Shown: piece after piece, positions 58,501-58,674 of the stretch
Layout of the letters: the number at the start of each line of letters is the position of its first letter
Position numbering within the stretch: position 1 is the first letter of the stretch
IMG/VR virus record: IMGVR_UViG_2913167280_000003
Location: 1-64,000 of that record
Strand: one strand, 5' to 3'
Source of the DNA: a virus
Taxonomy: Duplodnaviria; Heunggongvirae; Uroviricota; Caudoviricetes
DNA length: 64,000 bases
Notes under the pieces: model-generated
What the model was told of the DNA's origin: nothing
The model's database searches: none
Seen by the model: the letters and a program-made list of their open reading frames with translations, nothing else
Position numbers and translations under genes: made by a program

Positions 58501-58674
58501 TATACCAATGTGATGATTCTGCCGGTACGACTCTGACATCTATTCCTCGAAACGGAGTGCACAACAGATAAGAGCATTTGTAGAGTTCGACTCTCTACCG
58601 TGGGCTTTTTCCCGCGATGTGCGCCATAGATGCTCTTTCCGTTGTGGCGAATGCGGCTGAGCGCACGCGGGGAG

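What the first reader, a model, noticed from the sequence alone, without database searches (positions are those of the whole stretch)
58581..58610. Additional tRNA 3'-end-like element downstream of the split tRNA
TAGAG-TTCGACT-CTCTA forms a perfect 5-bp stem with a canonical T-loop sequence, followed by CCGTGGG, C and a T-run. I could not find a matching 5' acceptor strand upstream, so this may be a tRNA remnant or a terminator mimicking a T arm. Together with the split tRNA it suggests a rearranged tRNA locus.
Basis: seen in the sequence. Interest (0 to 1): 0.4.

Follow-up and report, generated by a model that had tools for sequence, protein, structure and literature searches.

The report
Permuted tRNA-like RNA module in phage leader
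The apparent stray tRNA end is the T arm of a conserved, unannotated 87-base tRNA-shaped RNA element that P1-like and lambda-like phages carry beside their tRNA genes; its function has not been tested.

Summary
The T-arm-like hairpin is real: G58580-C58598, 6 bp closing UUCGACU. It is the only such hairpin in the 64 kb window, where about 0.05 are expected by chance.

It is neither an orphan tRNA 3' end nor a terminator. CCGTGGG pairs with CCCGCG just downstream, so the T-run is a hairpin loop.

The hairpin is the T arm of an 87-nt four-helix element (58560-58646):
- a long outer stem with a bulged A;
- the T arm;
- a directly stacked acceptor-like hairpin;
- a small hairpin.

This is a circularly permuted tRNA-like cloverleaf, the topology of bacterial YrlA Y RNAs and of the tRNA domain of permuted tmRNA precursors.

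Twenty sequence variants from P1-like plasmids, P22-like/lambdoid prophages and other enterobacterial phages keep 95.6% of pairs, with 13 doubly compensated pairs. ARAGORN and Rfam detect nothing there, and it is unannotated in every record inspected.

The outer stem is a conserved scaffold that carries about 100 different inserts in phage leader and tRNA regions.

Best reading: a co-transcribed tRNA-mimic RNA module acting as a processing signal or decoy. The function is inferred.

Noticed in passing: 1 kb upstream lies a widespread tmRNA-like 10-codon tag module whose 5' arm is antisense to host tmRNA.

The parts
58546..58557 (+). Small upstream hairpin (CUC-GAAACG-GAG). Relatives have GCUCC-ACGAAAC-GGAGC directly 5' of many copies of the element.
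   Evidence: Predicted in the fold of 58545-58660. The same motif precedes the element in CobraSix, the E. albertii plasmid, P1 element 3 and many viral contigs. It accompanies the element but is not always present.
58560..58577 (+). Outer stem, 5' strand (CACAACAGAUAAGAGCAU) with bulged A58566.
   Evidence: Pairs with 58630-58646: 17 pairs, 92.4% of cells paired, 4 pairs with double changes. The same arm sequence flanks about 97 different inserts.
58580..58598 (+). T arm: 6-bp stem GUAGAG/CUCUAC and 7-nt loop UUCGACU (U54 U55 C56 R57 A58 pattern, G53-C61 closing pair).
   Evidence: 99.2% of cells paired, and 3 of 6 pairs have changes on both sides (AU<->GC, UA<->AU/CG).
58599..58616 (+). Acceptor-like hairpin stacked directly on the T arm with no linker: CGUGGG / CUUUUU loop / CCCGCG, with a U.G pair (G4:U69 in tRNA numbering).
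   Evidence: 100% of cells paired, and 5 of 6 pairs have changes on both sides across variants. The loop sequence is not conserved (CUUUUU, GUUGCG, UUGCU, AUUCG).
58617..58627 (+). Small hairpin in the D-arm position: 3-bp stem AUG/CAU and 5-nt loop NGNGN with two invariant G.
   Evidence: 98.3% paired. The stem changes to CACG/CGUG in L008, with U.G in L032. The loop Gs are invariant in 20 variants.
58630..58646 (+). Outer stem, 3' strand (AUGCUCUUUCCGUUGUG).
58647..58674 (+). Conserved 3' flank GCGAAUGCGGCUGAGCGCACGCGGGGAG, containing hairpin UGCG-GCUGAG-CGCA (58652-58665). It then runs into the RBS and ATG (58675) of a 137-aa ORF with a lipoprotein-type signal (LSLC).
   Evidence: This block matches many unrelated phages at 82-92%. 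In ST64B the equivalent region gives a sub-threshold Rfam STnc100 hit. The ORF is; it has no Pfam or PHROG family.

Best explanation
Window 58560-58646 encodes, on the + strand, a structured RNA module. It is co-transcribed with the phage tRNA genes in the long leader of the P1-type ban operon; in lambdoid relatives it sits in the Q-dependent late-operon leader.

The module is a four-way junction that imitates a tRNA opened at the anticodon loop. The conserved outer stem takes the place of the anticodon stem. The T arm carries a canonical T loop. An acceptor-like helix closed by a loop stacks on the T arm, giving 12-13 bp of coaxial helix as in tRNA. A small hairpin sits where the D arm would be.

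Shown here: the structure, its conservation with compensatory changes, its strand, its distribution, and that it is none of tRNA, tmRNA, terminator or att site.

Inferred: the RNA presents a tRNA 'elbow/minihelix' to proteins or ribozymes that recognise tRNA shape (RNase P, TruB/TrmA, the CCA enzyme, or tRNA-targeting defence nucleases). It therefore acts either as a processing/punctuation signal that cuts and stabilises the polycistronic tRNA-containing leader, or as a released stable RNA of about 90 nt that serves as a tRNA decoy.

It is one cassette type in a family in which the same bulged stem displays many alternative inserts.
For: - Structure: MFE -32.3 kcal/mol, z -4.5.
- Covariation: 20 distinct variants keep 95.6% of 640 pair cells. 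13 pairs have changes on both sides. 0 of 500 shuffles reach the observed value on any of the five measures, and slid registers give 37-59% paired.
- Strand: about 53 G.U cells would be A.C on the other strand, and the T-loop reads UUCGACU only on +.
- Conserved context: it is always on the strand of the neighbouring tRNA genes or late operon. In L005 it starts 2 nt after the CCA of tRNA-Thr. In CobraSix it follows tRNA-Arg, between Q and the lysis genes. It lies between the antiterminator and holin genes in P22-like prophages.
- P1 itself has, at the same place, another stem-enclosed element with a D-like arm and a GGGUUCGAAUCCC T arm.
- Distribution: about 65 viral contigs, 69 of 5426 E. coli genomes, and three species representatives (Kluyvera, Ca. 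Erwinia dacicola, E. coli). It is never annotated.
- Precedent for tRNA-shaped non-tRNAs being modified by TruB/DusA and cut by RNase P: YrlA (PMC4201824).
Against: - There is no expression, processing or binding data for this element.
- Sequence diversity of the T-arm type is modest: a few subtypes, mean column identity 87%. Part of the covariation signal therefore comes from a few lineages.
- The D-position hairpin (3 bp, 5-nt loop) lacks tRNA D-loop hallmarks, so the tRNA-like tertiary fold is unproven.
- The acceptor-like helix is only 6 bp in this window. YrlA RNAs with acceptor-like stems shorter than 7 bp were not cut by RNase P (PMC4201824).
- Arms that are nearly identical at the DNA level around unrelated inserts could reflect recombination rather than RNA function.
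- SJ46 carries a hybrid of two elements whose arms no longer match.
- CRISPRi knock-down of the neighbouring P1 genes gave no plating defect (PMC10695390).
Confidence: 0.6

Rival explanations
1. It is the tRNA-like domain of a phage-borne, circularly permuted (two-piece) tmRNA-like RNA. RNase P would open the acceptor-like loop, CCA would be added, and the piece would work together with the tmRNA-like tag module found in the same leader.
For: In Enterobacter phage MII_001 and two viral contigs, the T-arm element lies immediately 5' of the tag module. That is the exact gene order of permuted tmRNA: P2 strand, T arm, acceptor, loop, acceptor, D analogue, P2 strand, resume codon, tag. Rfam beta_tmRNA aligns end to end over L006:1196-1401 (21.8 bits, E 4.5e-5 in a 361-nt search). 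In 24 of 67 loci with the element, an ANDD-type tag lies on the same strand within about 1.1 kb.
Against: - No G3:U70: this window has G4:U69, and MII_001/CobraSix have an A.G mismatch at 3:70.
- No encoded CCA.
- ARAGORN calls no tmRNA at any of these elements.
- Rfam scores are far below gathering thresholds (24-25 vs 47 bits; 22 vs 84).
- The Rfam alignment places the T arm in unpaired model columns.
- 43 of 67 loci with the element have no such tag, and many tag modules have no T-arm element.
- The tag module carries its own antisense arm against host tmRNA, which suggests it uses the host's tRNA domain.
- The element shows no sequence similarity to E. coli ssrA.
Confidence: 0.12
2. It is primarily a DNA-level feature. 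The conserved 17-bp imperfect inverted repeats would be recombination or cassette-exchange sites (or the ends of a miniature mobile element), and the inner hairpins would be cargo without RNA function.
For: The same arms (AACAGGTAAGAGCAT ... RTGCTCTTWYCGTTGTGG) flank about 97 unrelated inserts of 27-102 nt in 226 elements. At the same position after trnT, P1 and plasmid pN16EC0879-2 carry different inserts with identical arm bases. After the same spacer, Klebsiella phage 5 carries yet another insert. SJ46 shows a deletion by recombination between two elements.
Against: - Covariation inside the insert (T arm, acceptor-like and small hairpins), with G.U pairs that work only on the + strand, needs selection on a single-stranded + strand molecule.
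- Orientation is constant relative to transcription.
- Arms also covary where they differ: GGGUA/UACCC, GGGCGCU/AGCGCCC.
- No transposase, no target-site duplication noticed, no integrase.
Confidence: 0.12
3. It is a decayed tRNA gene fragment left by the rearrangement that produced the HNH-interrupted tRNA just upstream.
For: It has a canonical T arm. It lies 60 nt downstream of a tRNA split by an HNH endonuclease ORF. The locus differs from P1, where trnA and trnT are intact.
Against: The element is present and structurally conserved in genomes with intact tRNA loci and in prophages without tRNAs. Compensatory changes show purifying selection on a structure that is not a tRNA. It shows no match to any core E. 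coli tRNA or tmRNA 3' end: only 69 of 5426 genomes match, all in unannotated prophage or plasmid DNA.
Confidence: 0.04
4. It is an intrinsic terminator or attenuator for the tRNA transcript.
For: A G+C-containing hairpin and a run of five T lie within 25 nt.
Against: The T-run is separated from the T-arm stem by CCGTGGGC, and it forms the loop of the next hairpin. In other variants that loop is GUUGCG or UUGCU with no U-run. The terminator scan calls sites at 57505-57524 and 59055-59072 but none here.
Confidence: 0.02

Closest known systems
YrlA-type bacterial Y RNAs (tRNA-mimicking partners of Ro60/Rsr; Chen et al. 2014, PMC4201824)
   Same: Size is about 90-110 nt. The 5' and 3' ends form a long stem. 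The order of modules is the same: stem, T arm, closed acceptor-like stem-loop, D-position stem-loop, stem. This is a tRNA permuted at the anticodon position. The T arm is canonical. Some YrlA RNAs are phage-encoded.
   Different: No Ro60/TROVE gene nearby. The GNCGAAN0-1G Ro-binding motif is absent; CUCGAAACG or CACGAAACG is found instead. The D-position hairpin is much smaller and lacks D-loop signature nucleotides. Hosts such as E. coli K-12 generally lack Rsr (own knowledge). The outer stem has its own conserved sequence with a bulged A.
tRNA-like domain of circularly permuted (two-piece) tmRNA precursors, and TLD-only phage tmRNA (mycobacteriophage DS6A; PMC4131195, PMC11915505)
   Same: The strand order around the T arm and acceptor helix is the same. 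It is adjacent to a tmRNA-like resume codon and tag in some phages. DS6A is a precedent for a phage carrying only a tRNA-like domain that can inhibit trans-translation.
   Different: No G3:U70, no CCA, and a closed acceptor loop of 5-6 nt. It has a real hairpin in place of the unpaired D-loop analogue. It falls below the thresholds of all tmRNA detectors. It is usually not contiguous with the tag module.
Stable non-tRNA RNAs and tRNA-like processing signals in phage transcripts: T4 species 1 and 2 RNAs of the tRNA cluster, and the RNase P-processed C4 RNA precursor of P1/P7 (own knowledge, not checked here)
   Same: Small structured RNAs co-transcribed with phage tRNAs or regulatory RNAs, and matured by tRNA-processing enzymes.
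   Different: No sequence or structural homology was tested. Those RNAs are not built on the conserved bulged stem seen here.
Canonical tRNA
   Same: T arm, 12-13 bp T/acceptor coaxial stack, four-way junction.
   Different: No anticodon arm and no free acceptor end. Not detected by ARAGORN or by Rfam RF00005.

Membership tests
tRNA gene | Detected as a cloverleaf by tRNA finders (ARAGORN; Rfam RF00005 at or above 29 bits) | tested here: not met
   ARAGORN finds 0 genes in the window. cmscan finds no tRNA hit in 58530-58690 even at E<=10.
tRNA gene | T arm: 5-bp stem closed by G53-C61, with a 7-nt loop UUCRANY | tested here: met
   GUAGAG-UUCGACU-CUCUAC at 58580-58598. The pairs covary.
tRNA gene | Anticodon arm, and a 7-bp acceptor stem with free 5' end and 3' NCCA | tested here: not met
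   The 17-bp outer stem occupies the anticodon-arm position. The acceptor-like helix is 6 bp, closed by CUUUUU, with no CCA.
Intrinsic (Rho-independent) terminator | G+C-rich hairpin immediately followed by a U tract | tested here: not met
   No call at this site. The U tract is a hairpin loop and is absent in other variants.
YrlA / bacterial Y RNA | Module order: terminal stem, (V), T arm, acceptor-like stem-loop, D stem-loop, terminal stem | tested here: met
   Structure and pair counts, compared with the description in PMC4201824.
YrlA / bacterial Y RNA | Encoded within about 4 kb of, and on the same strand as, a Ro60 (TROVE) gene | tested here: not met
   ORFs within 56500-60500 are dmt, an HNH endonuclease, a small lipoprotein-like ORF and short ORFs. 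No candidate of Ro60 size or family was found. The locus is the P1 dmt-ban region. Only about 2 kb on each side was inspected.
YrlA / bacterial Y RNA | GNCGAAN0-1G motif near the 5' end (putative Ro60 site) | tested here: not met
   The nearest sequence is C-U-CGAA-AC-G at 58546-58554 (CACGAAACG in relatives). It lacks the first G and has two bases before the last G.
YrlA / bacterial Y RNA | Nearly invariant D arm with tRNA D-loop nucleotides, allowing G18/G19-T-loop and Levitt pairs | tested here: inconclusive
   It has only a 3-bp stem and a 5-nt loop NGNGN with two invariant G. Tertiary pairing cannot be tested with these tools.
tmRNA (permuted form), tRNA-like domain | Acceptor stem with G3:U70 and a 3' CCA, allowing charging with alanine | tested here: not met
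   In this window 3:70 is C-G and 4:69 is G.U. MII_001 and CobraSix have A.G at 3:70. L057 and L078 have U3.G70. No variant has CCA.
tmRNA (permuted form), tRNA-like domain | Detected by ARAGORN, or by Rfam tmRNA models at the gathering score | tested here: not met
   ARAGORN makes no tmRNA call at any element. tmRNA_permuted scores 24-25 bits against a threshold of 47, and beta_tmRNA 13.6-21.8 against 84. Those hits cover the tag module, not the T arm.
tmRNA (permuted form), tRNA-like domain | Contiguous with a resume codon and a tag reading frame ending in a hydrophobic-Ala-Ala degron | tested here: inconclusive
   In this window the tag module (57592-57624, ANDDLMMVAA*) is about 1 kb upstream, with a tRNA and an HNH gene in between. 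It is contiguous only in MII_001-type loci.
Phage att site derived from a host tRNA/tmRNA 3' end | Identity to the 3' part of a host tRNA or tmRNA gene | tested here: not met
   The 37-mer 58576-58612 matches only 69 of 5426 complete E. coli genomes at E<=10, always in unannotated prophage or plasmid DNA. It shows no similarity to E. coli ssrA.
Miniature inverted-repeat mobile element | Terminal inverted repeats plus target-site duplications and empty sites | not tested
   Inverted arms are present. Target-site duplications and empty sites were not examined systematically.

The most novel reading that the evidence does not exclude
The element is one cassette of a previously undescribed RNA 'toolkit' in enterobacterial phage leaders. 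In this toolkit a conserved bulged stem displays interchangeable RNA modules. Some modules are tRNA-shaped mimics in two different permutations. A neighbouring module is an anti-tmRNA RNA that pairs with nt 67-106 of host tmRNA and offers its own resume codon and 10-codon degradation-tag frame. Together they would let phages tamper with host tRNA-recognising enzymes or defences and with ribosome rescue.
Probability: 0.3. Interest if true: 0.85.

Novelty: new variant of a known kind. Interest (0 to 1): 0.62.

Why it matters
- tRNA-shaped non-tRNAs (YrlA, tmRNA domains, viral tRNA-like structures) are rare and informative. This one would be a new class, carried by model phages (P1-like, P22-like, lambdoid), that has escaped annotation. 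In P1 the corresponding region is annotated as minus-strand ORFs plp and upl.
- It gives a testable handle on two questions: how tRNA genes embedded in phage operon leaders are matured, and whether phages deploy tRNA decoys against tRNA-targeting defences.
- The conserved-stem scaffold with about 100 alternative inserts points to a modular, fast-evolving RNA arsenal.
- The adjacent tag module, if it really pairs with host tmRNA, would be a new way for viruses to interfere with trans-translation.

Tried and rejected
- tRNA and tmRNA finders: ARAGORN on the window and on all loci found nothing at the element.
- Rfam at permissive thresholds on 3 kb and on 161 nt gave only chance-level miRNA/snoRNA hits over the element.
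- Terminator reading: rejected.
- att-site reading: rejected.
- Protein-coding reading: the overlapping minus-strand ORF 58540-58956 and the extended plus ORF from 58630 have no significant Pfam or PHROG family. Variants differ by 1- and 7-nt indels.
- Homology or antisense relation of the element to E. coli ssrA: none.
- RNAduplex energies as evidence for tmRNA pairing of the tag module: not decisive on their own, because background 45-mers reach similar values. This was replaced by alignment-with-shuffle tests.
- Strict association of the element with tRNA genes: only partial. 73 of 226 stem elements have a same-strand tRNA within 500 nt.
- Strict association with the tag module: only partial, 24 of 67.
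- Literature searches for a described phage tmRNA-like or tRNA-like element in P1/P22 leaders found none. The library is open-access only, so absence is not proof.
- My first regular expression for collecting elements was too strict and had to be relaxed.

Full report
**Context.** The window is a P1-like (Punavirus) plasmid-prophage. The region matches the P1 dmt-ban interval. dmt ends at 57320, followed by the C1-controlled ban promoter region and then the place where P1 carries trnA(Asn) and trnT(Thr). Seven plasmids from E. coli, E. fergusonii and Salmonella sp. carry 57990-58700 at 99.4% identity. ARAGORN finds no tRNA in this window. The trnA-like 5' part (57997-58039, anticodon arm UGU) is separated from a T arm plus acceptor-CCA (about 58469-58500) by a 139-aa HNH endonuclease ORF (58049-58468; phrog_2255, E 6e-39). 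The finding lies 60-110 nt downstream of that split tRNA.

**Observation.** The stem is 6 bp (G58580-C58598) around UUCGACU, which fits the T-loop pattern and has the G-C closing pair. It is the only such hairpin on either strand of the 64 kb window. Markov simulations give 0.05 per window, and none with 6 bp in 300 trials.

**Anatomy.** The partner of CGUGGG (58599-58604) is downstream, CCCGCG (58611-58616), so the 'T-run' is a 6-nt hairpin loop.
- A small hairpin follows (58617-58627).
- Everything is enclosed by a 17-bp stem, 58560-58577 with 58630-58646, with a bulged A at 58566.
- The 87-nt unit folds at -32.3 kcal/mol, z -4.5.
- The T arm and the acceptor-like helix abut without a linker, giving 12 stacked base pairs, the length of the tRNA acceptor/T minihelix.
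- In tRNA terms the RNA runs: anticodon-stem 3' strand, T arm, acceptor 3' strand, loop, acceptor 5' strand, D-position hairpin, anticodon-stem 5' strand. It is a circularly permuted cloverleaf without an anticodon loop or a free acceptor end.

**Relatives.** Similarity searches and a pattern scan recovered the element in:
- other P1-like plasmids (E. albertii, L004; pN16EC0879-2, L005);
- Enterobacter phages CobraSix (L003) and MII_001 (L006);
- phage CMS-2020a (L008);
- P22-like prophages of E. coli (L130, L131);
- about 65 viral contigs.

There are thirty distinct sequences of this type. Twenty were aligned. On the four-helix structure, 95.6% of 640 pair cells are standard pairs and 13 of 32 pairs show changes on both sides. 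None of 500 column shuffles reaches the observed value on any measure, and sliding the 3' partners by 1-3 columns drops pairing to 37-59%. The acceptor-like helix has double changes in 5 of its 6 pairs, while its loop sequence is free. About 53 cells are G.U, which would be A.C on the other strand. Together with the T-loop this fixes the functional strand as +, the strand of the tRNA genes and of transcription.

A covariance model built from the alignment scores the window copy at 102 bits. It also finds the more distant stem-enclosed elements of P1 itself at 35 bits: L001:3047-3140, directly after trnT, and 3549-3634.

**What it is not.**
- Not a tRNA or tmRNA gene: ARAGORN and Rfam find nothing there.
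- Not a terminator.
- Not a copy of a host tRNA/tmRNA 3' end used as an att site. Only 69 of 5426 E. coli genomes match the 37-mer, always in unannotated mobile DNA, and there is no similarity to ssrA.
- Not coding: overlapping ORFs have no significant family hit, and variants differ by 1- and 7-nt indels.
- Not debris of the local rearrangement. It follows intact tRNA-Thr in L005 (2 nt after CCA) and is present, downstream of the intact tRNA-Asn/Thr pair, in L004. It also occurs in prophages with no tRNA genes.

**The scaffold.** The outer arms (AACAGGTAAGAGCAT ... RTGCTCTTWYCGTTGTGG, often followed by TGAATGCGC...) are far more widespread than the T-arm insert.
- P1 element 1 has a D-like arm (GCGA-CGUCGGAGA-UCGC) and a GGGUUCGAAUCCC T arm, with the outer stem in the acceptor position. 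That is a different permutation of a tRNA-like domain on the same stem.
- The window has a second, weaker stem element at 57707-57798 containing GGUUCGAUUAACC.
- Different inserts occupy the same genomic slot in different phages: P1 versus pN16EC0879-2 after trnT, and this window versus Klebsiella phage 5 after the same spacer.
- SJ46 has a recombinant of two elements.
- About a third of the elements have a same-strand tRNA within 500 nt, and 14 abut a tRNA 3' end.

**Mechanism.** Shown: a conserved, strand-specific, tRNA-shaped RNA structure embedded in leaders that also carry tRNA genes. In lambdoid relatives it lies between the Q antiterminator and the lysis genes. In P1-type genomes it lies in the C1-repressed ban leader. 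The rest is inferred.

The closest functional analogue is YrlA. YrlA has the same module order, is modified by TruB and DusA, and in M. smegmatis is cut by RNase P in the acceptor-like loop and receives CCA (PMC4201824). By analogy, the element probably presents a tRNA elbow/minihelix to tRNA-recognising factors. This either punctuates or stabilises the polycistronic leader, or yields a stable decoy RNA.

It fails YrlA membership: no Ro60 gene nearby, no GNCGAA motif, and a minimal D-position hairpin. It also fails membership as a tmRNA tRNA-like domain: no G3:U70, no CCA, and below all detector thresholds. I therefore file it as a new variant of the tRNA-mimic kind rather than a member of either family. 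CRISPRi data show that the neighbouring P1 genes are dispensable for plating in the laboratory (PMC10695390). This suggests an accessory, perhaps host- or defence-dependent, role.

**Rival worth keeping: a tmRNA-like partnership.** One kilobase upstream (57529-57700) lies a module that Rfam's permuted-tmRNA models hit below threshold.
- Tag frame: it contains AAAU-GCA AAC GAU GAU CUG AUG AUG GUA GCG GCC UAA (ANDDLMMVAA*). Eight variants of this 10-codon frame were seen: ANDDLMMAAA, ANDDLMLMAA, ANDDVVLMAA, ANDDQFLAVA, ANEERFLMAA, ANDNTFLAVA, ANEEMYLAVA and the window's own. All resemble the E. coli tag ANDENYALAA. There is an in-frame UAG eight codons upstream and no start codon.
- Structure: a helix encloses the stop codon, followed by a hairpin; both covary.
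- Spread: 362 phage records matched a 531-nt P22-like leader query, and in every row inspected the shared part was this module. They include Drexlerviridae, Schitoviridae, Ackermannviridae, Nonanavirus and Skatevirus, besides P1- and P22-like phages. It is always unannotated or under 'hypothetical protein'.
- Relation to the element: in MII_001-type phages the T-arm element sits immediately 5' of it, in the order of a permuted tmRNA gene. Usually the two are separate.
- Antisense arm: the module's conserved 5' arm is antisense to E. coli tmRNA nt 67-106, which cover the 3' strand of PK1, the resume codon and codons 2-6. Alignment scores are 32-43, against shuffles averaging about 16.5, with 0 of 1000 shuffles reaching the observed score in seven variants. 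The sense orientation scores at chance level. This suggests the module borrows or blocks the host's tmRNA rather than needing its own tRNA-like domain, which lowers the tmRNA-domain reading of the T-arm element.

**Verdict.** It is wrong on two counts, because the element is neither a remnant nor a terminator. The element is an unannotated, conserved, permuted tRNA-like RNA module belonging to a larger stem-scaffold family of phage leader RNAs.

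Noticed in passing
window 57529-57700 (tag frame 57592-57624); also L001:2430-2600, L130:2680-2860, L006:1276-1442, L010:987-1150, L132-L136: A tmRNA-like module: conserved 5' arm, A-rich stretch, resume-like GCA and a 10-codon frame (ANDDLMMVAA* here; 8 variants, all AN[DE][DEN]...[AV]A). The stop codon sits in a covarying helix, followed by a hairpin and a 3' hairpin or pseudoknot. There is no start codon, and an in-frame UAG lies 8 codons upstream. 362 phage records from at least seven virus groups matched the 531-nt leader query, the shared part being this module in every row inspected. Unannotated; sub-threshold Rfam tmRNA_permuted/beta_tmRNA hits.
   Followed up: partly
window 57529-57577 versus E. 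coli K-12 ssrA (L256:194-556): The 5' arm of the tag module is antisense to host tmRNA nt 67-106 (PK1 3' strand, resume codon, codons 2-6), including an 11/11 perfect block UAGUUUUCGUC in relatives. 0 of 1000 shuffles reach the alignment score in each of 7 phage variants. The module's own codons 3-6 differ from the host's, so the arm does not match its own frame. This suggests an anti-tmRNA or surrogate-tag RNA. Duplex energies alone were not decisive.
   Followed up: partly
window 57997-58500: A tRNA split by a free-standing HNH endonuclease gene. The 5' part (trnA-like acceptor and D arm, anticodon arm UGU) is at 57997-58039, the ORF at 58049-58468 (phrog_2255, E 6e-39), and the T arm, acceptor and CCA at about 58469-58500, with a C.A mismatch in the T stem. 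The insert is almost entirely ORF, leaving no room for a group I ribozyme. ARAGORN does not call a tRNA, and Rfam tRNA gives 25.2 bits over the 5' part only.
   Followed up: partly
window 57707-57798: A second stem-enclosed element with the same kind of outer arms (AUAACAGGCAAGGGCGC / GCGUCCUUACCUGUUAC) and an inner GGUUCGAUUAACC hairpin. MFE -41.3 kcal/mol, z -3.8; weak hit of model R1 at 14-17 bits.
   Followed up: partly
226 stem elements in the 253 loci held (scans), e.g. L145, L147, L161, L178, L222, L231, L245: The outer arms AACAGGTAAGAGCAT...RTGCTCTTWYCGTTGTGG(TGAATGCGC) form a conserved scaffold around about 97 unrelated inserts. Some inserts have one or two T-arm-like hairpins, and one ends in ...GGGUUCAACUCCCACCGCCA. 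This looks like an exchangeable RNA-cassette system in phage leaders.
   Followed up: partly
L001:3021-3590 (P1 plp and upl, annotated on the minus strand): The P1 ORFs plp and upl overlap trnT and three plus-strand stem-enclosed structured elements (L001:3047-3140, 3277-3378, 3549-3634). They may be annotation artefacts over non-coding RNA.
   Followed up: no
L002:3277-3360 (Salmonella phage SJ46): A hybrid of P1 element 2 (5' half) and element 3 (3' half), joined at the shared CGUAACGGGKUCAUAUCCCAAUCUAC core. This is a deletion by recombination between two elements that leaves non-matching outer arms.
   Followed up: no
window 58647-58680 and 58675-59088: A conserved block GCGAAUGCGGCUGAGCGCACGCGGGG follows the element and is shared with many unrelated phages. 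In ST64B the equivalent region gives a sub-threshold Rfam STnc100 hit (35 bits). Here it leads into a 137-aa ORF with a lipoprotein-type signal peptide, on the strand opposite to P1's 'plp'.
   Followed up: no
window 57505-57524: A strong terminator-like hairpin (GCCCAUCUUCGGGUGGGC followed by UUUUUU) sits between the ban promoter/operator region and the tag module. Transcription of everything downstream, including the T-arm element, therefore needs read-through or another promoter.
   Followed up: no
L003:884-957 (Enterobacter phage CobraSix): An Rfam isrJ hit above threshold (62.6 bits) lies directly after the antiterminator gene, upstream of tRNA-Arg and the T-arm element.
   Followed up: no
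L130:2860-2895 (E. coli P22-like prophage): A further T-arm-like hairpin GGCAGG-UUCGAUU-CCUGAC lies between the tag module and the T-arm element in the late leader. ARAGORN does not call it.
   Followed up: no
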